The position numbers were made by a program, and so were the translations under genes. A DNA stretch of 64,000 nucleotides, taken from contig CALXOF010000001.1 in NCBI GenBank assembly GCA_944389945.1, positions 3,016-67,015 of the forward strand. Direction: 5' to 3'. Of this stretch, positions 5,903 to 51,834 are shown piece after piece. The DNA comes from an uncultured Kiritimatiellota bacterium (GTDB taxonomy: Bacteria > Verrucomicrobiota > Kiritimatiellia > RFP12 > DVOR01). Within the stretch, counting starts at the first letter, position 1, and the number at the start of each line of letters is the position of its first letter. Below the pieces are notes generated by a model. That model was given only the letters and a program-made list of their open reading frames with translations, was not told where the DNA came from and ran no database searches.

Positions 5903-6009
5903 AAACCCTTAAGGGTCCGCCCTGAGACCCTATAGTGGTCCGAGGTCAACCACTATAGTGGTCGGGGTCGAGACCCTATAGTGGTCCAGGTCGAAACCCT
6001 TAAGGGTTC
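5903..6009. repeat. MITE-like palindrome array (copy 1): aacccttaagggt ends flanking 3 x gacc(c/a)ctatagtggtc
   Basis: Perfect 16-bp palindrome GACCACTATAGTGGTC and variants at a 24-25 bp period. Terminal 13-bp palindrome AACCCTTAAGGGT. Same element at 21688, 35648 and (variant) 51724. Confidence 0.8.
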
Positions 6010-12232: not shown

Positions 12233-12259
12233 TTGACTCGGGGGGGGGTAAGCTATACT
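12233..12259 (+). promoter_or_regulatory. Promoter-like TTGACT-15 nt-TATACT with G9 homopolymer in the spacer
   Basis: TTGACT at 12233-12238. The G run spans 12240-12248. TATACT at 12254-12259. The ATG of the downstream gene is at 12285. Confidence 0.4.
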
Positions 12260-12284: not shown

Positions 12285-13175
12285 TTGATGATGGCCCACT
12301 CCGGTAACATTCTCTTTTTGGGTGGCGATGACGCCCAACGCAAGGCAATTCAGGCCGCGCTGAAACAGGCGTGCATGGGGCATGCGCTCTGGGACTTCTC
12401 TGAAGATGTCGAGAGGGGCAAGCAGACGCTCTCTTTTATTAATGGGACGCGTGTCTGCACCTTTGCATTTCGCCCACTTCCCGAAGACGTCCTTGCTTGC
12501 CGCAAGGCGGCTGCAGGGGTGGGCGTGACCTTTTTGGTTTGCATGGTGGAGGCCTCCGGTGAACCGTCCCAGTCCGTCTCACAGGCGTTGGAGGCGTTGC
12601 GGCAAGACCCGGCCTCCCCGACCGTCTATCCGCTTCTTTTGCTCGGAGCGAACCCCACGCAGATGGAGCGCGCGCTTCTGAAGTGGGGTGGGATGGGGCT
12701 TTCTCTTGGGGGCTCGCCGGATGCGCCTTATGGCATGAATGCTCTCTTGGCTCGTTGTCTGCCGTGGATGGCGATGGGCGAGGCACAGGGTGAGCTCACT
12801 GTTGCGGAGGTCGAGACGTTCTGGGGCGACTATTGCCGCTATGGCACCCTCAAGGCCCTCAATCGCTTGACGTTGCGCCTCAAGGACGAAGGCATTCTCG
12901 CGCCGCTTGACTATGCCTGGTTCCTTCCGCAAGGGACGCGCACCGTGCTCTCAGAGGACGTCCGCGCCGACCTCACAAAGTTGGTGTCGCTCTTGCCAAA
13001 GAGCGGTTGTAGCGCCCTCACCGTGGCCGCTCGCAAGCAATACATCGCGCGAATCGACCGCTTGGAACTCAACACCTTCCAAGTGCGGGAGTGGCGCACC
13101 GCTTTCACGATAGCGCTAAAGGCCGCAAAGTTCGAGAAGGAAAAGCCCGCCCTGCCCGCGCGGGGGGAGGGGTAA
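12285..13175 (+). CDS. Hypothetical protein (lower-GC gene)
   Basis: 296-aa ORF with no recognisable motifs. Local GC is clearly below the window average. Confidence 0.5.
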   Translation: MMMAHSGNILFLGGDDAQRKAIQAALKQACMGHALWDFSEDVERGKQTLSFINGTRVCTFAFRPLPEDVLACRKAAAGVGVTFLVCMVEASGEPSQSVSQALEALRQDPASPTVYPLLLLGANPTQMERALLKWGGMGLSLGGSPDAPYGMNALLARCLPWMAMGEAQGELTVAEVETFWGDYCRYGTLKALNRLTLRLKDEGILAPLDYAWFLPQGTRTVLSEDVRADLTKLVSLLPKSGCSALTVAARKQYIARIDRLELNTFQVREWRTAFTIALKAAKFEKEKPALPARGEG

Positions 13176-13253: not shown

Positions 13254-13655
13254 ATGAGCCCTCGCGCTTGGTTTGGTGCCAGTCTCTTGCTGGGCCTTTT
13301 AGGCGTTCCTGTCATTGCAATTTTGGCAGTGACTTCCGAGGAAGAAAGGTTCGTGCTTTTGATCACTTTTGGCATACCTCTGGGAATTGCGTGGATATGG
13401 GGGATATGCGCCACATCGGTGAGGCGCTTGCACGACATGGGTGCTCCGGGTGCCTTGATTTTGCCGGAGGCGGTTGCGCTGGTGGCAAGCCTCATTAAAG
13501 TGTGTGTGATGCTGTGCGCCGCGGATGATACGGTTGTCGCAGTGGAAAGCGGGTGGTCGCGCATGATCAGCTTTGTCATCGCGGTCGTTGGTTTTATTGT
13601 GATGATGATGCCGGGAGACCCAAAGGAAAATAAATACGGCGCCCCGTCGGTGTGA
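13254..13655 (+). CDS. DUF805-family inner-membrane protein
   Basis: Multiple TM helices. Hallmark 'RRLHDMG' and C-terminal '...KENKYGAPS' (DUF805 ends in N-YG). Confidence 0.65.
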   Translation: MSPRAWFGASLLLGLLGVPVIAILAVTSEEERFVLLITFGIPLGIAWIWGICATSVRRLHDMGAPGALILPEAVALVASLIKVCVMLCAADDTVVAVESGWSRMISFVIAVVGFIVMMMPGDPKENKYGAPSV

Positions 13656-19356: not shown

Positions 19357-19989
19357 TTACGAGGGGGCGGAGAGTGCTTCGTAGAGATCTGCGGCCCACG
19401 CGTGTTCGGGACGGGGATATTTGGCAACGAGGCGGCCCTCCACGGTGCGGAAGAGGGGGACCCAATCGGGCTCCTCCCCCGGGGCGACATCTGTCGAGTT
19501 GTCGTAGAAATAGGCACGGTCCACGAAAGTGGCGGCCTCTCCGGCATTGGCCATCGAGCGTGCGTAACGGGTGACAATCTTGTCGATGGGGACAGCGTGG
19601 CCGCCTTGCAAATACCGCGCGGCTACGCGTTTGGCGTTGATCGTGGGCGAATCGGTGCCCACGAAGAAGAGACGAATGAAAAAACCGGCTTGGTGGGCTC
19701 GGAAGAGGAAGTCTAGCTTCTCTTGCGTGGAGAAGACGGTTTCAAAGGCAAAGTCGCGTCCTTCGCGCAGACACGCCTCGCGTCGTTCTGTGGCCAGGCG
19801 TGCGGCAGTCAATATGGATGCTTGGTCGTTCCAACCATTCAACTCTCGTTCCGCGATGTCGTCGGGGTTGATATAGTCGCACCCCACCATCCATTTGTGG
19901 CGCAGGTCGTGCAATTGATGGGTAATGGAAGTCTTGCCGGAACCGTTCGGTCCGGCGACGACGACCAAGCGGGGGCGGAGGGCGCTCAT
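19357..19989 (-). CDS. Zeta-toxin-like / COG4185-type P-loop kinase (putative toxin)
   Basis: Walker A 'VVVAGPNGSGKTS'. About 210 aa. Stop/start overlap (ATGA) with the small upstream ORF. Confidence 0.65.
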   Translation of the reverse strand: MSALRPRLVVVAGPNGSGKTSITHQLHDLRHKWMVGCDYINPDDIAERELNGWNDQASILTAARLATERREACLREGRDFAFETVFSTQEKLDFLFRAHQAGFFIRLFFVGTDSPTINAKRVAARYLQGGHAVPIDKIVTRYARSMANAGEAATFVDRAYFYDNSTDVAPGEEPDWVPLFRTVEGRLVAKYPRPEHAWAADLYEALSAPS

Positions 19990-20165: not shown

Positions 20166-20713
20166 GACAATAGTGTAGCACATTGGAAGGTTGGAAGCTT
20201 GGAGGCTTGGAAGTTTGGCTTTGTTGGTGGGGCTCCGCCCCACACCCCAGCGGAGGAAGTTTGGAAGCTTGGCTTCTCCACGAAGACACGAAGGAGCGCA
20301 AGGGCCTGGGCACAAGGGGCGGCTTGCGCCGCCCCGGAGAACGGAAAACGGAGAACAGAGAACAGAGAGCGCGCGGCAAGCGCGCGATGGGCAAGGCGCT
20401 GTACAGGGCGGCGTCAGCCGCCGTCCTATTCCTCCTACCGCATCGTCTGAGGGCGGTTTTCTTGGGAAAGCGACAAGGCGCGAAGCGGAGGGCGACGGGC
20501 GCGGTCAGCGGCGGAGCCGCAGAGCGACCGATGGAGCCCGAAGCGGTTCGCGCCCCATAGCGTCTTTGCGGTTCGGCGGGGAGCTATTCCTCGGGAGGGG
20601 AGGGGGAATAAAACACGGGTATTAAAAATAAAACTTGCCCCCCCCTTGTGTTATGTTAGCATAATGGTGTTTTCGGACACCTCGCCCGAAGGAATTCAAG
20701 GATTGATGAAATC

Positions 20714-21358
20714 ATGAAACGACTGTTGTTTGCCTCGCTCGTCGCTGTCGCGGCGACCACCCTCCAGGCTGTAAATTACAACTGGACAGCTGTCAATACC
20801 AACAATGCCGCCACCGGCCAGGTGACGCTCGAGAACGGCCTTAGCCACACCAAGGGCTTCGCCGTCAGCCTCACCATCAACGTCACCCAAGTGCCGGCGT
20901 CCATCACCGGTGACTGGTGGCCGGCGATTCTCAGCTTGGGAACCTCTACGGAGAACCGGCCGAACATCACTGCCAACATGGCGGGGGATAACGTCATCCG
21001 CCTTGACACGAAGGCCGGCGACACGGGGAGCACCGCGACCACCATCACGACAGAGTCCTCATTGACCACTGGTAAGCACACGATTGTTCTGGCCTACGAT
21101 GGTACGAATATGACGCTGACTCTGGATGGGACCCAGATTGCCACGACCGCTTACACCCTGACCTACGACCCGAACCTCGTGGCTTGGGGCCAGCAGGCCG
21201 GATATCCGAATGACACGTACCTGAACGCCAACGACCAGTTCCAGTACACGATTGAGTCGTTGCAGGTCGGTCGGGTGGAGACCATCCCCGAGCCGACGGC
21301 GCTGGCGTTGCTCGCCCTTGGCGTGGCCGGCGTGGCCCTCCGCCGCCGCGTGGCTTAA
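20714..21358 (+). CDS. PEP-CTERM sorting-domain secreted protein (LamG-like)
   Basis: Signal peptide 'MKRLLFASLVAVAATTLQA'. C-terminus 'PEPTALALLALGVAGVALRRRVA'. C8 tract in the promoter at 20656-20663. Confidence 0.85.
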   Translation: MKRLLFASLVAVAATTLQAVNYNWTAVNTNNAATGQVTLENGLSHTKGFAVSLTINVTQVPASITGDWWPAILSLGTSTENRPNITANMAGDNVIRLDTKAGDTGSTATTITTESSLTTGKHTIVLAYDGTNMTLTLDGTQIATTAYTLTYDPNLVAWGQQAGYPNDTYLNANDQFQYTIESLQVGRVETIPEPTALALLALGVAGVALRRRVA

Positions 21359-21380
21359 GCGGACTTCGGTCCTTTGCAAG

Positions 21381-21407
21381 GCGCCCCACCCGGGGCGCCT
21401 TTCTTTG
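21381..21407 (+). terminator. Rho-independent terminator after PEP-CTERM gene
   Basis: gcgcccc-accc-ggggcgc hairpin followed by TTTCTTTG. Confidence 0.55.
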
Positions 21408-23442: not shown

Positions 23443-23699
23443 AACCGTGGGAGCGGGGGTGTTGAGTGGGGAGAACGGAAAACGGAGAACGGAGAACGGA
23501 GAACAGAGAACGGAGCGTGCAGGCGCGAAGCGCCAAACCTTCCACGGCTACAGAACGCTCCTGCGGGGCGACGGTCAGGCCGTGTGCATTACTGTTTGCA
23601 GCCTTTGCTTTGCCATGCTGACCGAGGAATAATTTGGCGCCCGCTTGCCGGACGCATCTGTTCTCCGTTCTCTGTTCTCTGGGGCGGCAACGCCGCCCC

Positions 23700-32209: not shown

Positions 32210-32769
32210 AAGCACAATAGTATAGCACATCTCCCTCCGCTTTGCTTGCGCCCGATTTTCAAGAGGAAGTTTGGAGGCTTGGAAGTTTGGAGGCTTGGAG
32301 GAGCCACAGAGGTTGAGTCCCGGGCTGCCGCCCTTGGCGGCGATGAGAGCGGACGTTGCATGGCAAGCGCAGGACTGCCAGAATAGAGAAACCGCCGATT
32401 AGATTGGAAGTTTGGAAGCTTGGAGGTTTGGAAGTTTGGCTGGGCACACCAATTGTCTTGCTGAAGACTGCCAGAATGGGAAAACCGCCGATTACGCAGA
32501 TTAAAGCAGATTAGGGGCCGGCTACCGCCGGCAGGACTGCCAGAATAGGAAACCGCAGATTTCACAGATTTTGGGCAGATTAAGGGCGTGCTGGCGCACG
32601 CAGGACGCGCAATTGGAAGTTTAGAAGTTTGGAGGCTTGGAGGCTTGGCCTTTTTGCGGCTTACGCCGCCCTGTACAGCGCCTCGTCCATCGCCCGCTTG
32701 CGGGCGGTCCTGAATCTCCTGCATCTCCTGAATCTCCTGTTGGGCCATCTGAGGAGTGCGTCCCAAAGA

Positions 32770-32797
32770 AAAAGCCCCGCGGGGCGGGGCTTTTTGG
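32770..32797 (-). terminator. Terminator after PEP-CTERM gene (gccccgcggggcggggc + T-run)
   Basis: Identical hairpins also follow the PEP-CTERM genes ending at 33907 and 34814. Confidence 0.65.
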
Positions 32798-32812
32798 GGA
32801 TTGGGCGGGGGC

Positions 32813-33544
32813 TTAGGCCACGCGGCGGCGGAGGGCCACGCCGGCCACGCCCAGGGCGAGCAACGCCAGCGCCGTCGGCTCGGGGACGGAGGGATCTGGG
32901 TCGGAAGCTTCAGAGGCCGCAATCACTTGGTCGTAGGTCATCCCGGCCACGTAGTCGATGTCCATCGTGTAGGTATCCGCATTATTGTCCCACAGGTTCA
33001 TCCGCACATCGGTGCCGGAATCGCTCGTGCCCTGCTGCCCCCAGACGATGTGGGTCAGCGACTGGGTGGTGGTGTACGTGCCGTACAGGGTGCCGTCGAG
33101 GTAGAAGCTCAGCGTGTTGTTACCGTTCCAAGAGAGGACAAACTCATGGGTCGAGTTCGAGGTGAGCGTGACTTGTTCGCCAATCACCGACGGCGCGTCG
33201 CTCGCGGCCCCAAAGCCAATCGTGCCGCTGCTTTTGTCCGCGCAGTCGGCGTTGAACCGAATCGCCTGGCTGTTACCCTGGAAGGCGGCACCAATGATCG
33301 ACGGGTATTTCTGCCCACCGTTCGTGTAGGCGTTGATTGTTCCGGCGCTGAGGACGGCGGAGAGGGTCCATGAGCCGGAGCCAAGGTTGACCTGGTTCGA
33401 GCCAGTTCCGACGGTCATGGAACCGGAACTGGTCTTTGTGCCGAGGTCAACGTGGCCGGTGATCTTGTCCCAGTTGATGTTTGCCGCTTGGGTGGCGCCG
33501 AAGGCGAGTGCGGCGAGAGCGAGGGTGAGGAGTTTGCGTGTCAT
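32813..33544 (-). CDS. PEP-CTERM sorting-domain secreted protein (LamG-like)
   Basis: Signal peptide 'MTRKLLTLALAALAFGATQA'. C-terminal 'VPEPTALALLALGVAGVALRRRVA'. G9/C9 tract in the promoter at 33625-33633. Confidence 0.85.
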   Translation of the reverse strand: MTRKLLTLALAALAFGATQAANINWDKITGHVDLGTKTSSGSMTVGTGSNQVNLGSGSWTLSAVLSAGTINAYTNGGQKYPSIIGAAFQGNSQAIRFNADCADKSSGTIGFGAASDAPSVIGEQVTLTSNSTHEFVLSWNGNNTLSFYLDGTLYGTYTTTQSLTHIVWGQQGTSDSGTDVRMNLWDNNADTYTMDIDYVAGMTYDQVIAASEASDPDPSVPEPTALALLALGVAGVALRRRVA

Positions 33545-33865
33545 CTATGTCCCAACTTTCCGGTGTGTACACCTATCTTACAGGAAGGAATCCTGAAGAC
33601 TGTTTGCATATTAGCATAACTTTAGGGGGGGGGCAAGTGTTATTTAGAGGAAGCTTGGAAGTTTGGAGGCTTGGAAGTTTGGTTCTCGGGGAGGGGCGTT
33701 GCCCCACACCCTGCTTTTCTTCTTTAGAAAAGGTTGCAAGGCGCGAAACGGAGGGCGGCGGGCGCGGTCAGCGGCGAAGCCGCAGGGCGCCCGATGGAGC
33801 CCGAAGCGGTTCGCGCCCACAGTTGCGTCTTTGCGGTTCTCATTAATGGTGAGTGGGCAAAGAAA

Positions 33866-33893
33866 AAGCCCCGCGGGAGCGGGGCTTTTTGGG
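33866..33893 (-). terminator. Terminator after PEP-CTERM gene
   Basis: aaaaagccccgcgggagcggggcttttt. Confidence 0.65.
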
Positions 33894-33906
33894 GATTGGC
33901 GGGGGC

Positions 33907-34602
33907 TTAGGCCACGCGGCGGCGGAGGGCCACGCCGGCCACGCCAAGGGCGAGCAACGCCAAGGCCGTCGGCTCGGGGACGGAAGGATCCGGGTCGGGT
34001 TCCGGCAGGACAGCGGTCATCTGGGCGACCATGCGATCAATCTCCTCTTGGGTGAGGATGCCTTCATAGGCCGCCGTCTCATTGATGGTCCAGGCATCGT
34101 TCGCGAAGGTGGAGACAATGATATTTTCGGACGTGTTCGTATCCAAGACGGAGAAGAGCTGCACACCATTCGCGTAGCCGGTGATGGTGGCTTGATTGTT
34201 CGCGTTGCGCTCAATCGTGATGGTGAGCAGGTATTTCGTACCGACCGAAAGGGTTGGGGTATTGCTTGTGGTTCCCCAGCCAGTCTCAGAACCACCCTTC
34301 TTTTCCACGCCGATATGGCCATTGAGGGCATTCCCGGAGCCATACATATAGGCATAGGCGTGTCCGGCATCCCAGAGGCCGAGATCTGCGATGGCGGCTT
34401 GTTCTGTGCTGGCAGCCGTCGCATTCGCGGTCACCACCATGGCATAGGAGAGCGTTTTGGTGGAGGTAGAACCTTCCGTGGCGAAGTATTTATCGGTGTA
34501 GATGCTGTTCTCGGCTCCGGTTTGCCACTGCATGGTGACAGCCTGGGCGGAGAGGGCGAGGCCGGCGGCGGCACAAGCCAAGGCAAAACGTACGCATTTC
34601 AT
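33907..34602 (-). CDS. PEP-CTERM sorting-domain secreted protein
   Basis: Start at Met160 of track ORF 33907..35079 ('MKCVRFALACAAAGLALSAQA'). PEP-CTERM tail. G8 tract at 34680-34687 upstream. Confidence 0.8.
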   Translation of the reverse strand: MKCVRFALACAAAGLALSAQAVTMQWQTGAENSIYTDKYFATEGSTSTKTLSYAMVVTANATAASTEQAAIADLGLWDAGHAYAYMYGSGNALNGHIGVEKKGGSETGWGTTSNTPTLSVGTKYLLTITIERNANNQATITGYANGVQLFSVLDTNTSENIIVSTFANDAWTINETAAYEGILTQEEIDRMVAQMTAVLPEPDPDPSVPEPTALALLALGVAGVALRRRVA

Positions 34603-34768
34603 GGGTGTGTCCTTCGTCCCACGGGGGGCAGGACATCTGCCCGATTCACATGGAACGCCATTAAGATAGCACAAGTGACGGGGGGGGCAAGTGTTATTTA
34701 TTGTGTCAAGGCGCAACAAGGGAAGATTGGGGGCTTGGAAGGTTGGTTTCAAGCGGAGAATGGCAAAG

Positions 34769-34797
34769 AAAAAGCCCCGCGGGGGCGGGGCTTTTTG
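34769..34797 (-). terminator. Terminator after PEP-CTERM gene
   Basis: aaaaagccccgcgggggcggggcttttt. Confidence 0.65.
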
Positions 34798-34813
34798 GGG
34801 GATGGGCGGGGGC

Positions 34814-35491
34814 TTAGGCCACGCGGCGGCGGAGGGCCACGCCGGCCACGCCGAGGGCGAGCAACGCCAGGGCGGTCGGCTCAGGGATGTTGGTCGGCAT
34901 AATCGCGGATCCCGCGTCAACCAGCTTGGTGATCTCATCCGTGGTGAGGGTGCCATCATAAGTGGCCGCATCGTTGAAGGTCCACGCGGCATTGTTGGCG
35001 AAGGTCGCCGTGAGGGCGCCATCGGTGGGCTCAAGGATGGGATTGGCGTTGCCATTGAACGTAATTGGGGTCGTCCCATTGTTGATATAGAGCGTCACGT
35101 TCCAACGGTTGTTGGTGGAATCCCAGGTGCCATTGATCACCACGATGTGCGAGCCGGACGCAAGCGAACTATTGTTGTCCGTCCAAGTCGTAGCGTTAGA
35201 AGTCGTACTGTCGAAGTGGGCGCCAAAGCCATTCGCGGCGGAATAGGCCAAGAGACCGACAGCAGTGTCATCTCGCGTGGAGGTCCCGAAGGTCACCATG
35301 CTGGAGTTCTCGAGAGACTGGCCGGAGAAGGTCGTCGTGATCTTCACGGCGAGGGCGAAGTCGGCCTTCGCGTCACTCGAGCCGAAGATTTCCTGCGAGC
35401 CAGGGACGGTCGTGCTGCTCCAGGTCATATTCGCGGCGGAGGCAACCGTCGCCAGGCCAAGGGCCGCAATCAATCCAAGACAACGTTTCAT
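34814..35491 (-). CDS. PEP-CTERM sorting-domain secreted protein (LamG-like)
   Basis: Signal peptide 'MKRCLGLIAALGLATVASA'. PEP-CTERM tail. TTGACG-N18-TATTAT promoter with a G9 spacer tract (plus-strand C9 at 35573-35581). Confidence 0.85.
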   Translation of the reverse strand: MKRCLGLIAALGLATVASAANMTWSSTTVPGSQEIFGSSDAKADFALAVKITTTFSGQSLENSSMVTFGTSTRDDTAVGLLAYSAANGFGAHFDSTTSNATTWTDNNSSLASGSHIVVINGTWDSTNNRWNVTLYINNGTTPITFNGNANPILEPTDGALTATFANNAAWTFNDAATYDGTLTTDEITKLVDAGSAIMPTNIPEPTALALLALGVAGVALRRRVA

Positions 35492-35647
35492 GTCCTGCTA
35501 TCCTTTCTGTGTCGCGGCAACCACGTCGCGATTTATCAGCAATTCCATACTGATGAAGTAAATAATAGTCTACCCCCCCCCGTTTCGTCAAGTCTTTTTT
35601 TGCCTCTTGTGGGGCTTCGCGACTCCGGCCTCAAAAGGGGTCTTGGA

Positions 35648-35754
35648 GAAACCCTTAAGGGTCCGCGGTGAGACCCTATAGTGGTCGGAGGTCAACCACT
35701 ATAGTGGTCGGGGTCGAGACCCTATAGTGGTCCGACCCGAAACCCTTAAGGGTC
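35648..35754. repeat. MITE-like palindrome array (copy 3)
   Basis: aacccttaagggtc ... gaccctatagtggtc ... gaccactatagtggtc ... gaccctatagtggtc ... aacccttaagggtc. Confidence 0.8.
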
Positions 35755-36037
35755 GGCTGACGCCGCCCCTGGAGAACGGAAAACGGAGCGTGTAGGCGCG
35801 AAGCGCCAAACCTTCCACGGCCACGGAGAACAGAGAACGCCCCTTTGGGGCGACCGGCGAAGCCATTGTACAAAGCGGCGAAGCCGCCGTCCTATAGGTC
35901 CTATATGTCCTACCGCGATGCCTATTGGCACGTCGCAGACGTGCCGGGGGTGCAGGGAGAACTTCTCCCTGCCGGGGGGTGGGGCAGCGCCCCACATTCT
36001 TCCAATCTTCCATTCTTCCAATCAGCTAATCAGCCAA

Positions 36038-36997
36038 TCAGCTTCCCGCCCTTCCTGGGGCGGGAGGAGGTGGCGGGGTGCGGTCGAAGCGGCGGGTGGC
36101 GAGGGCGAGGTAGTGGCGCCAGGTGGGGCGAATGGTGACGCGGGGGAGGAGGTCGCGTTCCGTACGGCGGCGGTGGAAGGGCATGGGGTCGCGTCGGGGG
36201 AGGGGAAGGACGGCGTGGCGGAGGGCGCAGAGGGTGACGCAGAGGAGGAAGGGGAGTCCGCGGGTGAGCCAGAGGCGGGGTCCCCAGAGGCTGCAGGCGG
36301 TGGAGAGGAGGTTGGAGAGGTAGCGGCGCCAGACGCGGCGGCCGGGGAGTGCGCGGGCGGTGGTGCCTTCGGCGTGGGGGACGGGCGGGGGGGGGACGTA
36401 CCAGCATTCCCAGCCGGCGAGCCAGAGGCGGTGGCAGAGGTCGATGTCTTCGCCGTAGCAGAAGTAGGAGGGGCGGAAGAGTCCGCCGGCGGTCTCGATG
36501 GCGGCGCGGCGGAGGAGGAGGCAGGCGCCTTTGCCGGCGAGGACGGGGTGGGGGCGCTCGGCGTGTGGGCCGGGGGGGCGGCGGTAGCCTTGGTGCCAGA
36601 GGATGCCGAGCGGGGTGAGGTATTCGCCGCAGGTGTCGAGGGTGCCGTCGGGGAGGATGAGGGTGGGCTGGAGGGCGGCGAGGTGGGGGTAGGTGTCGAG
36701 GGCGGCTTGGAGGATGCGGATGGGTTCGGCGGCGGGGAGGGTGACGTCGGTGTTGAGGAGGAGGATGTGTTCGCCTTCGGCATGGGGGAGGGCGAGGTTG
36801 TTGCCGCCGGCAAAGCCGAGGTTGCGGGGGGCGCGGAGGAGGGTGACGCCGTCGGGGACGGTGAGGGGGGGCTCGCTGGCGTTGTCGACGACGAGGACTT
36901 GGGCTTCGGGCAGGTGGCGCAGGACGGCGGCCAAGCACCCTGAGAGGAGTTCGGGGTGATTCCAAGCGACAATGATGACGGTCAGCCGCGCATGCAT
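36038..36997 (-). CDS. Family-2 glycosyltransferase
   Basis: 'TVIIVAWN', 'VVDNAS', 'NLGFAGGNN', 'YGEDIDLCHRL'. Confidence 0.85.
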   Translation of the reverse strand: MHARLTVIIVAWNHPELLSGCLAAVLRHLPEAQVLVVDNASEPPLTVPDGVTLLRAPRNLGFAGGNNLALPHAEGEHILLLNTDVTLPAAEPIRILQAALDTYPHLAALQPTLILPDGTLDTCGEYLTPLGILWHQGYRRPPGPHAERPHPVLAGKGACLLLRRAAIETAGGLFRPSYFCYGEDIDLCHRLWLAGWECWYVPPPPVPHAEGTTARALPGRRVWRRYLSNLLSTACSLWGPRLWLTRGLPFLLCVTLCALRHAVLPLPRRDPMPFHRRRTERDLLPRVTIRPTWRHYLALATRRFDRTPPPPPAPGRAGS

Positions 36998-37939
36998 GGG
37001 GAGATTATAACAAAGGAGAACGGAAAACGGAGAACGGAGAACGGAACGCGCGGCAAGCGCGCGACGGGTGAGGGCGCTGGGAGGGCGTGGAAGGTTTGCC
37101 CTGCGGGGCTGACACGAAGGTGCACGAAGGACAAGGGGCGCTGACGCGCCCCGGAGAACGGAGCGTGCAGGCGCGAAGCGCCAAACCTTCCACGGCCACA
37201 GAGAACGGAGAACAGAACGCCCCTGCGGGGCGACGGGTGGAGTGGTGTGCCAGGGCTTCTCGGTCTCATCGCCGCCAAGGGCGGCGGTCCAGGCTTCAAC
37301 CTCTGTGGCTCCTCCAAGCCTCCAAGCTTCTAAACTTCCAAGCTTCCCATAGCCCCTGCACCCCCGGCACGTCTGCGACGTGCCAGAAGGACGACGAGGT
37401 AGGACATATAGGACATATAGGACCTATAGGACGGGGCTACGCCGGAGGACTCCCCAAAACCAAAGCGTGGCGTACGAAGCCCGCCATGCTCCTACAGGCC
37501 CCCGGGCCGGACGTGCGCCTTGCGCGCACGCACGGCCCGCCTTCAGCGTCGCCTTTCTTTGTGTCCTTTGTGAGACCTTGTGTCCTTTGTGATAAATCCA
37601 CACTAGCAGTCCTGCGTGCGCTAGCACGCCCTTAATCTGCAACAAATCTGTGAAATCTGCGGTTCCCCTGCGTCGTGCTCTTAGCCGTGGAAGGTTTGGC
37701 GCTTCGCGCCTGCACGGTGTCTCTTTGTGGTCCTTCGTGTTCTTTGTGATAGCCGCGCAGCGTTCGGTCTCATCGCCGCCAGGGGCGGCGGCCCGGGCTT
37801 TCACCTCTGCGGCTCCTCCAAGCCTCTAAACTTCCAAACTTTCAAGCTTCTACGGGGGCGCTTTGCGCCCCCGTAAGCGGCGCGACGGCACAAAAAAAGG
37901 CCCCCGGATGGGGGGCCTTTTGTGCCGAGTCAGCGACGC
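36998..37939. repeat. Mosaic repeat block (heptad GAGAACG tracts, gcgcgcggcaagcgcgcg hairpin, ggtctcatcgccgccaagggcggcgg module, cacg..ctagcacgcccttaatctgc module)
   Basis: All modules recur elsewhere in the window in different orders (see findings). Confidence 0.7.
37893..37920 (-). terminator. Terminator after gap
   Basis: Minus strand: ggccccccatccgggggcc followed by T7. Confidence 0.7.
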
Positions 37940-51723: not shown

Positions 51724-51834
51724 AGACCCTATAGGGGTCGGCCCCGAGACCCTATAGTGGTCCGGGTTGAGACCCTATAGTGGTCCGGGTTGAGACCCTA
51801 TAGTGGTCCACTGCGAGACCCTATAGTGGTCCGG
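51724..51834. repeat. Palindrome array (copy 4, variant): five gaccctatagtggtc units at a regular 24-bp period, without the aacccttaagggt ends
   Basis: Units begin at about 51724, 51747, 51771, 51795 and 51819. Spacers of 9 nt are ggccccgag, cgggttgag, cgggttgag, cactgcgag. Confidence 0.8.

What the first reader, a model, noticed from the sequence alone, without database searches (positions are those of the whole stretch)
35560..35600. G9 tract in an 18-nt spacer of a TTGACG/TATTAT promoter for PEP-CTERM gene 34814..35491
On the gene strand: cTTGACGaaacGGGGGGGGGtagacTATTATttact. Here the homopolymer is poly-G on the coding strand, the opposite polarity to the other three paralogs, so the tracts were not simply copied with the gene. 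All four PEP-CTERM paralogs in the window carry an 8-9 nt homopolymer in their promoters. Together with the conserved 3' cassette (next finding) this suggests a family of independently switchable surface proteins.
Basis: partly seen in the sequence, partly recalled or inferred. Interest (0 to 1): 0.65.

Follow-up and report, generated by a model that had tools for sequence, protein, structure and literature searches.

The report
Slippage-prone G9 tract in surface-protein promoter
A run of nine G's sits between the two halves of the promoter of a predicted surface lectin-like protein in an uncultured gut bacterium, and comparison across many metagenomes shows such runs are conserved, change length between near-identical strains, and so most likely act as mutational dimmer switches for a family of surface proteins, a well-known trick not previously described in this bacterial lineage.

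Summary
On the minus strand, 35591..35562 reads TTGACG-aaacG9tagac-TATTAT, an 18-nt spacer lying 71 nt upstream of a PEP-CTERM, ConA/LamG-like gene (34814..35491). It is the best sigma-70-like site in the region.

The window has six G/C runs of 8 nt or more, which is no excess over composition. Their placement is what stands out. Five lie in promoter spacers, and all four PEP-CTERM genes carry one (P about 1e-7 to 1e-9).

There are two conserved promoter designs:
- C-type: TTG-C8/9-N11-TGnTAnnnT (genes A, B, C).
- G-type: TTGACN-G9-13-TAnnnT (gene D, ORF E).

Both designs recur upstream of homologues in related gut Kiritimatiellae/Lentisphaeraceae ('Ca. Spyradenecus') MAGs.

Tract lengths differ between otherwise near-identical metagenome contigs:
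- Gene C: C8 or C9.
- Genes A and B: 8 or 9.
- A G-type paralogue: G10, G11 or G12.
- The D tract itself: G9 in 17 of 20 contigs, plus one G7, one G13 and one A+G9.

All five indels among contigs at least 99.4% identical to the window fall in these tracts. Coding C7/C8 runs never vary.

The best reading is slipped-strand phase or graded variation of promoter strength, as in porA, opc, fim and vlp. This makes it a new member of a known kind. Expression effects and within-population switching are inferred, not shown.

The parts
35573..35581 (-). G9 homopolymer (C9 on the + strand), the mutable element of the gene D promoter spacer
   Evidence: Across 20 independent contigs with D-orthologue promoters it is G9 x17, G7 x1 (L009), G13 x1 (L060) and A+G9 x1 (L061).
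35586..35591 (-). -35-like hexamer TTGACG
35562..35567 (-). -10-like hexamer TATTAT, 18 nt from the -35
   Evidence: 10 of 12 consensus matches, no TG extension.
35595..35601 (-). A7 run just upstream of the -35, an A-rich UP-element-like stretch. A-rich DNA precedes the -35 in all tract-bearing promoters of the family.
   Evidence: The functional role is inferred.
35492..35555 (-). Predicted 5' leader with the AAGGA ribosome-binding site at 35505..35501. It is conserved 100% among D orthologues whose proteins are only 76% identical.
   Evidence: Its fold is no better than shuffles (z -0.5) and there is no Rfam family above threshold.
34814..35491 (-). Gene D: a 225-aa secreted PEP-CTERM protein with a ConA/LamG-like beta-sandwich
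   Evidence: PF07589 29.1 bits (cut-off 20.7). TIGR02595 20.5 bits (cut-off 16). AF2 model pLDDT 84. Foldseek hits to lectin/LNS/CBM40 folds.
34774..34786 (-). Intrinsic-terminator-like hairpin plus T run after gene D. This makes D a separate transcription unit.
34680..34687 (-). C8 tract of the gene C promoter (aacacTTG-C8-gtcacttgTGcTATCTT). It is C9 in 7-8 other contigs.
   Evidence: L001 and L003 differ over 6.1 kb only by this indel.
33907..34602 (-). Gene C: 231-aa PEP-CTERM paralogue
33625..33633 (-). C9 tract of the gene B promoter (TTG-C9-taaagttaTGcTAATAT, 17-nt spacer). It is C8 in L004.
32813..33544 (-). Gene B: 243-aa PEP-CTERM / Laminin_G_3-like paralogue
20638..20645 (+). C8 tract of the gene A promoter (aaaacTTG-C8-ttgtgttaTGtTAGCAT). 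It is C9 in L053.
20714..21358 (+). Gene A: 214-aa PEP-CTERM / Laminin_G_3 paralogue
   Evidence: PF13385 33 bits, PF07589 29.2 bits.
12240..12248 (+). G9 tract in a G-type promoter (TTGACT-c-G9-taagc-TATACT, 15-nt spacer) upstream of a 294-aa hypothetical gene plus a DUF805 gene. It has the same design as D but the genes are not PEP-CTERM.

Best explanation
The G9 run is a slippage-prone spacer element of the sigma-70-type promoter of gene D. Gene D encodes a secreted, exosortase-sorted (PEP-CTERM) lectin-like protein.

Proposed mechanism:
- Replication slippage adds or removes G's.
- This changes the distance and helical phase between the -35 (TTGACG) and the -10 (TATTAT). G7 gives a 16-nt spacer, G8 gives 17, G9 gives 18 and G13 gives 21-22.
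- The spacing change raises, lowers or silences transcription heritably but reversibly.

D is one member of a paralogous family in gut Kiritimatiellae/Lentisphaeraceae. Many members carry their own tract, promoter and terminator, so a population can express different combinations of these surface proteins. That is a contingency-locus repertoire.

Shown here:
- The tract position in a promoter-like site.
- Conservation of the tract across species in two promoter designs.
- Length polymorphism between near-identical strains, confined to these tracts.
- The predicted surface-lectin nature of the products.

Inferred, not shown:
- That the hexamers are the real promoter.
- That length changes alter expression.
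- That switching occurs at high frequency within a population.

In this window G9 gives an 18-nt spacer, one above the canonical optimum. That suggests a reduced or intermediate state rather than full ON.
For: Anatomy: TTGACG-18-TATTAT is the top promoter-like site in the region, with a Shine-Dalgarno and ATG downstream and a terminator after the gene.

Placement: 5 of 6 long G/C runs in 64 kb lie in promoter spacers, and 4 of 4 PEP-CTERM genes have one.

Cross-species conservation: 8 of 20 homologue loci from related MAGs carry a G9-G11 or C8 run at 66-104 nt upstream of the ATG, between TTGAC-like and TAnnnT hexamers. L018 is a perfect TTGACA-17-TATAAT with G10. These runs are 8 of the 11 long runs in about 64 kb of those loci. 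None of 9 outgroup loci has one.

Length polymorphism with identical flanks:
- Gene C: C8 x3 and C9 x7-8.
- Gene B: C9 x8 and C8 x1.
- Gene A: C8 x8 and C9 x1.
- P0033 paralogue: G10, G10, G11, G11, G11 and G12 in six samples.
- Other C-type promoters: 8 versus 9.
- D: G9 x17, plus G7, G13 and A+G9.

Indel concentration: among contigs at least 99.4% identical to the window, all 5 indel events fall in the tracts. L001 and L003 differ over 6.1 kb only by C8 versus C9.

Artefact control: coding C7/C8 runs in the same contigs never vary (8 of 8, 4 of 4 and 4 of 4).

Spacer lengths implied by the observed alleles cluster at 15-19 nt, around the 17-nt optimum.

A 'locked' variant exists: L023 has CTTG-CCCCTCCCC-N11-TATATT, which keeps the 17-nt spacing with an interrupted run.

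The products look like variable surface proteins. They have a signal peptide, a PEP-CTERM tail and a ConA-like fold. They are mosaic, with 100% conserved 5' regions and a centre only 68-86% identical.
Against: The D tract itself is G9 in 17 of 20 contigs. Its three variants all occur in diverged backgrounds, so recent switching at D is not demonstrated.

The C8/C9 alleles give 16- versus 17-nt spacers, and both are usually functional. The C-type promoters also have a TGn extended -10, which lessens dependence on the -35. The effect may therefore be graded or small rather than ON/OFF.

No read-level data are available. Assembly consensus hides within-sample heterogeneity and can miscall long G runs.

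No transcription start site or expression data exist for this uncultured lineage, and its promoter rules are assumed to be E. coli-like.

About half of the homologues in related genomes lack a tract.

The overall number of long runs in the window is not above the compositional expectation.
Confidence: 0.7

Rival explanations
1. The tract is a static promoter or regulatory element, such as a rigid G/C spacer or the binding site of a regulator. On this view it was inherited with the promoter family, and its length differences are neutral drift with no regulatory consequence.
For: D is G9 in 17 of 20 contigs. C8 and C9 both give workable 16- and 17-nt spacers. C-type promoters carry an extended -10 TGn. 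The promoter plus leader is extraordinarily conserved, 100% over 300 nt among orthologues with 76% protein identity. That argues for a sequence-specific function.
Against: The run is conserved as a run while its flanks, polarity and exact position differ between the two promoter designs and between species. A protein site would conserve sequence, not homopolymer character. Tract length is the only indel-variable feature in near-identical contigs. It ranges from 7 to 13, which covers spacers of 16 to 21-22 nt, and those cannot all be equivalent for a -35/-10 promoter.
Confidence: 0.13
2. Slippage-based switching occurs, but it works by changing the distance between an upstream activator or UP-element site (the A-rich block, or the 8-mer CCAARCYT arrays) and the core promoter. 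This is the arrangement at Bordetella fim genes. On this view the tract does not act by -35/-10 spacing.
For: A-rich blocks lie immediately upstream of every tract-bearing promoter. In the C-type promoters the '-35' is just TTG fused to the run and there is an extended -10. Tandem 8-mer arrays lie directly upstream of the gene B and C promoters.
Against: The G-type promoters have good canonical -35 hexamers (TTGACG, TTGACT, TTGACA) at 15-19 nt from the -10. No activator is identified.
Confidence: 0.1
3. The length differences are sequencing or assembly artefacts at homopolymers, and the co-location with promoters is chance.
For: All data are short-read metagenome assemblies. Long G runs (10-13 nt) are error-prone. 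The total count of long runs in the window is at the compositional expectation.
Against: Positional enrichment has P of about 1e-7 or lower in the window, and it is replicated in independent genomes. The same allele is recovered in many independent assemblies from several projects. Coding C7/C8 runs in the same contigs show zero variation. The C8 and C9 alleles of gene C are each seen repeatedly.
Confidence: 0.03
4. The promoter is switched by site-specific inversion (an inverton), as reported near PEP-CTERM genes in gut community members, and the tract is incidental.
For: A weak inverted repeat flanks the promoter (35474-35488 and 35633-35647, 15 nt, 80% complementary, 8-nt perfect core). Invertons are enriched near PEP-CTERM genes in a defined gut community (PMC11892184).
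Against: The repeat is at chance level for a 700-nt region, and one arm lies inside the coding sequence. All 20 independent contigs have the promoter in the same orientation. No recombinase gene lies next to the locus.
Confidence: 0.02

Closest known systems
Neisseria meningitidis porA (poly-G) and opc (poly-C) promoter-spacer tracts (from my own knowledge of the literature; not retrieved here)
   Same: A G or C homopolymer of about 9-14 nt lies between the -35 and -10 hexamers of an outer-surface protein gene. Changes of one nucleotide by slipped-strand mispairing move the spacing around the 17-bp optimum and give high, intermediate or no expression.
   Different: Those are Proteobacterial pathogens with porin or adhesin products, and they are experimentally proven. 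Here the organism is an uncultured PVC-group gut bacterium, the product is a PEP-CTERM lectin-like protein, and only comparative evidence is available.
Bordetella pertussis fim2/fim3/fimX poly-C promoter tracts (own knowledge)
   Same: Several paralogous surface-structure genes each carry their own C run in the promoter. They switch independently and produce combinatorial serotypes. This is the best analogue for the family-level picture here.
   Different: In Bordetella the tract sets the distance between the BvgA activator site and the -10, and the runs are longer (about 13-15 C). No activator is known here.
Mycoplasma hyorhinis vlp lipoprotein family (poly-A in the promoter spacer; own knowledge)
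   Same: It is a multigene family with a highly conserved promoter, leader and signal-peptide region. Each gene has a homopolymer between the -35 and -10 and switches ON and OFF on its own. The mature part of the protein is variable. The mosaic seen here, with conserved 5' and 3' ends and a variable centre, is similar.
   Different: The vlp tract is poly-A rather than G/C. The products are lipoproteins with size-variable repeats rather than PEP-CTERM ConA-like domains. The phylum is unrelated.
Inverton-controlled PEP-CTERM genes in gut bacteria (PMC11892184) and homopolymers noted in the Akkermansia muciniphila genome (PMC3048395)
   Same: The first is phase variation aimed at the same class of gene products in gut bacteria. 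The second is an explicit suggestion of homopolymer slippage in a gut Verrucomicrobium.
   Different: The invertons act by site-specific inversion, not slippage. The inverton criteria are not met here. The Akkermansia tracts discussed are inside coding regions (capsule genes), not in promoter spacers of PEP-CTERM genes.

Membership tests
Slipped-strand (SSM) phase-variable promoter / contingency locus | A simple-sequence repeat (homopolymer of about 7 nt or more) located within the promoter, between the -35 and -10 or between an activator site and the -10 | tested here: met
   G9 lies at 35573..35581 inside the 18-nt spacer of TTGACG/TATTAT. The same arrangement holds for genes A, B, C and E and for 8 related-species loci.
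Slipped-strand (SSM) phase-variable promoter / contingency locus | Repeat length polymorphic among otherwise near-identical genomes (family level) | tested here: met
   Gene C is 8 or 9, genes A and B are 8 or 9, and the P0033 paralogue is 10, 11 or 12, all with identical flanks. All 5 indels in contigs at least 99.4% identical to the window fall in the tracts. Coding C7/C8 controls are invariant.
Slipped-strand (SSM) phase-variable promoter / contingency locus | Repeat length polymorphic at this particular tract (gene D) | tested here: inconclusive
   G9 in 17 of 20 contigs. G7 (L009), G13 (L060) and A+G9 (L061) occur only in more diverged backgrounds.
Slipped-strand (SSM) phase-variable promoter / contingency locus | Length change alters transcription (ON/OFF or graded) | not testable with these tools
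   This needs reporter fusions or in vitro transcription. Only the implied spacer lengths (16, 18, 19 and 21-22 nt) can be calculated.
Slipped-strand (SSM) phase-variable promoter / contingency locus | High-frequency, reversible switching within a clonal population | not testable with these tools
   Only assembly consensus sequences are available, with no reads.
Slipped-strand (SSM) phase-variable promoter / contingency locus | The controlled gene encodes a surface-exposed or host-interaction product | tested here: met
   This is a prediction only. The N-terminus is signal-peptide-like (MKRCLGLIAALGLATVASA, read). There is a PEP-CTERM tail and a ConA/LamG-like fold with lectin-type structural neighbours.
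PEP-CTERM / exosortase-sorted proteins | C-terminal PEP motif, hydrophobic helix and basic cluster matching the curated models | tested here: met
   PF07589 29.1 bits against a cut-off of 20.7. TIGR02595 20.5 bits against a cut-off of 16. The tail reads IPEPTALALLALGVAGVALRRRVA.
PEP-CTERM / exosortase-sorted proteins | An exosortase (EpsH/Xrt) encoded in the same genome | not tested
   None was found among the 20 larger window ORFs scanned. The rest of the genome is not available.
Invertible promoter (inverton) | Near-perfect inverted repeats flanking the promoter, both orientations observed, and a recombinase nearby | tested here: not met
   There is only a chance-level 15-nt repeat at 80% complementarity, with one arm in the coding sequence. 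A single orientation is seen in 20 contigs. No recombinase is adjacent.

The most novel reading that the evidence does not exclude
These gut Kiritimatiellae/Lentisphaeraceae run a full antigenic or adhesive variation system built from PEP-CTERM lectin-like proteins. It would comprise dozens of paralogues, each with its own slippage switch in one of two promoter chassis. Near-invariant 5' (promoter, leader, signal peptide) and 3' (PEP-CTERM tail, terminator) cassettes would act as recombination anchors that shuffle the variable lectin cores between paralogues and strains. That would be a vlp/opa-like repertoire in a commensal PVC lineage. It would be the first contingency-locus system tied to exosortase cargo, and a slippage-based counterpart to the inverton control seen in other gut bacteria.
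Probability: 0.35. Interest if true: 0.7.

Novelty: new member of a known kind. Interest (0 to 1): 0.55.

Why it matters
Phase variation in gut commensals is known mainly from invertible promoters in Bacteroides and relatives. Homopolymer 'contingency loci' are textbook features of a few pathogens.

If this reading is right, a conserved family-wide set of promoter-spacer G/C tracts exists on exosortase-sorted lectin-like proteins in an uncultured PVC-group gut lineage. That would have several consequences:
- It would extend the slippage mechanism to a new phylum-level group and to a new cargo class, PEP-CTERM proteins, whose biology is poorly understood.
- It would flag these proteins as the organism's variable interface with host, phage or glycans.
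- It would give a simple sequence signature for finding such switches in metagenomes: TTG-C8/9-N11-TGnTAnnnT, or TTGACN-G9-13-TAnnnT.
- It is a practical warning that tract-length differences in MAGs of this group are biology, not noise.

Tried and rejected
1. JGI metagenome scan with CTTGACGAAAC-N5-20-AGAYTATYAT. It returned 28 hits, all unrelated sequences without a G run.

2. Exact-protein look-ups of ORF E with TTG or ATG starts. Neither is on record, because the called gene starts at 12291. It was recovered through its neighbour, which gave only two contigs, both G9.

3. Rfam search of 31-38 kb at a permissive E-value. It gave only sub-threshold chance hits, so the D leader contains no known riboswitch or sRNA.

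4. Fold of the D leader. Two small hairpins, z = -0.5, not better than shuffles. I dropped the idea of a structured regulatory leader.

5. Inverton hypothesis. Rejected; see the rival explanations.

6. 'Excess of homopolymers' as an argument. Rejected, because the count of 6 matches the Markov expectation of 6.9. Only position is significant.

7. The GT2 coding C9 run (36387..36395) as a frameshift switch. Rejected as a conserved feature, because six other contigs read CCCCACCCC.

8. Literature searches for PEP-CTERM plus phase variation, Kiritimatiell* plus phase variation, Spyradenecus, and homopolymer promoter-spacer metagenome terms. None found a description of this system.

It did not return the source genome itself, so a genome-wide tract census was not possible.

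Full report
**1. Observation**

Read on the minus strand, 35600..35560 is c-TTGACG-aaac-GGGGGGGGG-tagac-TATTAT-ttact.
- The -35-like hexamer is 35591..35586.
- The G9 run is 35581..35573.
- The -10-like hexamer is 35567..35562.
- The spacer is 18 nt.
- An AAGGA ribosome-binding site (35505..35501) and the ATG (35491) of a 225-aa ORF (34814..35491) follow.

A blind consensus scan of 32.5-36.1 kb returns this site as the best match. It scores 10 of 12 with spacer 18, and it is one of 3 sites against 0.9 expected in shuffles. The scan also finds terminator-like hairpins after gene D (34786..34774) and after the next gene (33880..33868). The described feature is therefore real and at the stated coordinates.

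**2. Is it more than chance?**

The window is 64% G+C and contains six G/C runs of 8 nt or more. A first-order Markov model predicts about 6.9. There is therefore no excess of homopolymers as such, and that argument should be dropped.

The placement is what is non-random. A motif search finds four PEP-CTERM genes:
- Gene A: 20714..21358, + strand.
- Gene B: 32813..33544, - strand.
- Gene C: 33907..34602, - strand.
- Gene D: 34814..35491, - strand.

Each has one of the six runs 66-81 nt upstream of its ATG. The probability that all four 81-nt upstream intervals are hit is about 9e-10 for random placement in the window. It is about 1e-7 to 1e-6 even if the runs are confined to 8-14 kb of intergenic DNA.

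The fifth run (12240..12248) lies in a very similar promoter-like site, TTGACT-c-G9-taagc-TATACT. It sits upstream of a 294-aa hypothetical gene followed by a DUF805 gene.

The sixth run (36387..36395) lies inside a GT2 glycosyltransferase gene. It exists only in this window. Six other contigs read CCCCACCCC there.

**3. Two promoter designs**

Genes A, B and C share a 'C-type' design: A-rich block, TTG, C8 or C9, 11 nt ending in TGn, then TAnnnT. Counting TTGCCC as the -35, C8 gives a 16-nt spacer and C9 gives 17 nt.

Gene D and ORF E share a 'G-type' design: a canonical TTGACN, 1-4 nt, G9, 5 nt, then TATnnT.

The inference of independent origin does not hold, however. A scan of species-representative genomes with the paralogue alignment places the family in gut MAGs. 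These are labelled Candidatus Spyradenecus, Lentisphaeraceae or 'uncultured Kiritimatiellaeota' (PVC group).

D's best homologues there are L010 and L011 (45-46% identity). They carry TTGACT-tgat-G9/G10 followed by TAATAT. L018 is a perfect TTGACA-17-TATAAT with G10 in the spacer. L017 and L024 carry G11 and G10. L013, L015 and L029 carry the C-type design with C8.

In total, 8 of 20 lineage loci have a run of 8 nt or more at 66 to 104 nt upstream of the ATG. These are 8 of the 11 long runs in about 64 kb of those loci. None of the 9 outgroup loci (Proteobacteria, Planctomycetota and others) has one.

Both designs are therefore old. They are inherited with gene subfamilies, and the run is maintained as a run while its flanks diverge.

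**4. Do the tracts change length?**

Exact-protein look-ups recovered many independent metagenome contigs carrying the same genes.

Unique-contig tallies:

| Promoter | Tract lengths observed |
|---|---|
| Gene C | C8 in 3 contigs (including the window), C9 in 7-8 |
| Gene B | C9 in 8, C8 in 1 |
| Gene A | C8 in 8, C9 in 1 |
| Two further C-type promoters in related strains | C8 versus C9 with identical flanks |
| D-subfamily paralogue P0033 (TTGAC-Gn-aaaggtga-TACCTT) | G10, G10, G11, G11, G11, G12 |
| D-orthologue promoter | G9 in 17 of 20, G7 in L009, G13 in L060, A+G9 in L061 |

The six P0033 contigs come from six samples and encode the identical protein with identical flanks. Their tract lengths give spacers of 17, 18 or 19 nt. 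The D-orthologue alleles give spacers of 18, 16, 21-22 and 19 nt respectively.

Among contigs at least 99.4% identical to the window, every indel event (5 of 5) lies in one of these tracts. L001 and L003 differ over 6.1 kb only by C8 versus C9 upstream of gene C.

As a control for assembly error, coding C7 and C8 runs in the same contigs never vary. The counts are 8 of 8, 4 of 4 and 4 of 4. They include a C8 in the very contigs whose promoter tract is G10, G11 or G12.

A 'locked' relative exists. L023 has CTTG-CCCCTCCCC-N11-TATATT, which keeps the 17-nt spacing with an interrupted run.

Longer tracts vary more than shorter ones, as expected for slippage. The D tract is the most stable. Its variants occur only in diverged backgrounds.

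**5. What is controlled?**

All four window proteins match PEP-CTERM above the curated threshold (PF07589 about 29 bits against 20.7; TIGR02595 20.5 against 16). Genes A and B match Laminin_G_3.

An AlphaFold model of D built on 30 homologues has mean pLDDT 84. It is a beta-sandwich followed by the C-terminal helix. Its nearest solved folds are lectin-type modules: the PilC pilin lectin module, CBM40, the botulinum Hc-N domain, neurexin LNS, calreticulin and legume lectins.

The N-terminus reads as a Sec signal peptide. The products are therefore predicted to be exported, exosortase-sorted, ConA-like proteins that probably bind glycans.

D orthologues are mosaic. The 300 nt upstream and the first roughly 150 nt of coding sequence are about 100% identical in contigs whose central coding region is only 68-86% identical. 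Conversely, L009 has an identical coding sequence but a diverged promoter.

The 3' tail plus terminator is shared at about 90-97% between paralogues. The order and identity of the paralogues downstream of D differ between strains. This pattern fits recombining, diversifying surface proteins.

The surrounding window is ordinary chromosome. It encodes SMC, GAPDH, YebC, LpxC, DHPS, CdaA and T2SS components. No exosortase is present in the window.

**6. Mechanism**

The best-supported reading is classical slipped-strand phase or graded variation of promoter strength. Replication slippage changes the run by one or more nucleotides. This alters the spacing and phasing between the -35 and -10, and hence RNA polymerase binding.

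The allele-implied spacers (15-19 nt, with outliers at 21-22) straddle the canonical 17-nt optimum. The window's G9 gives 18 nt, probably a reduced or intermediate state. G8 would be optimal.

Each gene has its own tract, promoter and terminator, so the states can combine independently.

Steps shown:
- Position of the tract.
- Conservation across species.
- Strain-level length polymorphism confined to the tracts.
- The predicted nature of the products.

Steps inferred:
- Use of these hexamers as the promoter.
- Dependence of expression on tract length.
- The frequency and reversibility of switching.

Caveats:
- The C-type promoters carry TGn extended -10 motifs, and they toggle only between 16 and 17 nt. 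Their effect may be a modest 'volume control'.
- Alternatively, the tract may set the distance to an upstream A-rich or repeat element, as at Bordetella fim genes.

**7. Rivals**

- A static element with neutral length drift is possible but fits poorly. The run is conserved as a homopolymer in two polarities, and the length range is 7-13.
- A sequencing artefact is largely excluded by the coding-run controls and by repeated recovery of each allele.
- An inverton is excluded. There is only a chance-level inverted repeat, a single orientation in 20 contigs, and no recombinase nearby.
- No known RNA family lies in the D leader, and its fold is no better than shuffles.

**8. Comparison with known systems and novelty**

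The mechanism is that of Neisseria porA and opc, Bordetella fim2 and fim3, Haemophilus hif and Mycoplasma vlp. These comparisons rest on my own knowledge of those systems. The fim and vlp families are the closest analogues for a multigene, independently switched repertoire.

Literature searches found no description for Kiritimatiellae, Lentisphaerae or Spyradenecus, and none for slippage control of PEP-CTERM genes. The nearest reports are these:
- Invertons enriched near PEP-CTERM genes in a defined gut community (PMC11892184).
- A remark that Akkermansia muciniphila has long homopolymers inside some genes (PMC3048395).

I therefore class this as a new member of a known kind, with moderate interest. 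The wider possibility is a recombining, slippage-switched repertoire of exosortase cargo. That would be more notable, but it needs read-level and expression data.

Noticed in passing
window 36387..36395 (inside the GT2 gene 36038..36997, - strand): There is a C9 run on the coding strand (VPPPP). It exists only in this window. Six other contigs read CCCCACCCC, with a Thr codon ACC in place of Pro CCC. A single substitution has created a frameshift-prone run in a glycosyltransferase. It is not a conserved tract.
   Followed up: yes
window 12240..12248, with ORFs 12291..13175(+) and 13254..13655(+): A G9 run sits in a G-type promoter-like site (TTGACT-c-G9-taagc-TATACT, 15-nt spacer). It lies upstream of a 294-aa protein with no family match plus a DUF805 protein. 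Tract-bearing promoters are therefore not restricted to PEP-CTERM genes. The run is G9 in all 3 contigs seen.
   Followed up: partly
window-wide intergenic regions, e.g. 5914..6000, 20183..20218, 23470..23515, 32265..32301, 33649..33682, 35670..35746, 37400..37432, 51724..51833: Intergenic DNA is a patchwork of short tandem arrays with periods of 7, 8, 9, 10 and 23 nt and 3-6 copies each. The same units recur all over the window: GGAGAAC, CCAAACTT/TTGGAAGC, TAGGACATA, CACAAAGGA and GAGACCCTATAGTGGTC... Copy number differs between strains (8-nt indels at 36027 and 32641-32648, 18-nt indel at 35897). Their origin and function are unknown.
   Followed up: partly
window 33640..33690, 34700..34760; L059-L065 upstream of the C-type promoters: The 8-mer array (CCAARCYT)n sits immediately upstream of the A-rich block and TTG-Cn of the C-type promoters of genes B and C and of their orthologues. 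It is a possible upstream regulatory or recombination element.
   Followed up: no
window 34700..35791 compared with L009, L059-L063: D orthologues are mosaic. The promoter, leader and first roughly 150 nt of coding sequence are about 100% identical while the central coding region is 68-86% identical. L009 shows the reverse, with identical coding sequence and a diverged promoter. This implies frequent recombination with breakpoints inside the gene.
   Followed up: partly
window 34762..34887, 33856..33980, 32764..32904, 21284..21400: The last roughly 75 nt of coding sequence (the PEP-CTERM tail) plus the terminator are about 90-97% identical at the DNA level among paralogues whose remaining sequence is only 31-35% identical in protein. 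This suggests a gene-converted 3' cassette.
   Followed up: partly
L004, L006, L060-L062 compared with window 32800..35500: The array downstream of D differs between strains. The window has D-C(231 aa)-B(243 aa). Others have D-230 aa-B, D-221 aa, D-201 aa-231 aa, or D-243 aa-231 aa. This shows paralogue replacement or reordering within the cluster.
   Followed up: no
L023 (Ca. Spyradenecus sp. MAG), about 60 nt upstream of the gene at 1498: A C-type promoter has an interrupted run, CTTG-CCCCTCCCC-N11-TATATT. It keeps a 17-nt spacer but should no longer slip. It looks like a 'locked' version of the switch.
   Followed up: no
L097-L102 (P0033 paralogue next to dTDP-sugar biosynthesis genes): This is the clearest hypervariable tract found. 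It is G10, G11 or G12 in six samples with identical protein and flanks, while a C8 run elsewhere in four of the same contigs (L097-L099, L101) is invariant.
   Followed up: yes
window 19357..19989(-) and the small ORF upstream of it: A Zeta-toxin/AAA_33 family gene with a 65-aa partner ORF lies directly upstream of PEP-CTERM gene A. It is probably a toxin-antitoxin pair.
   Followed up: no
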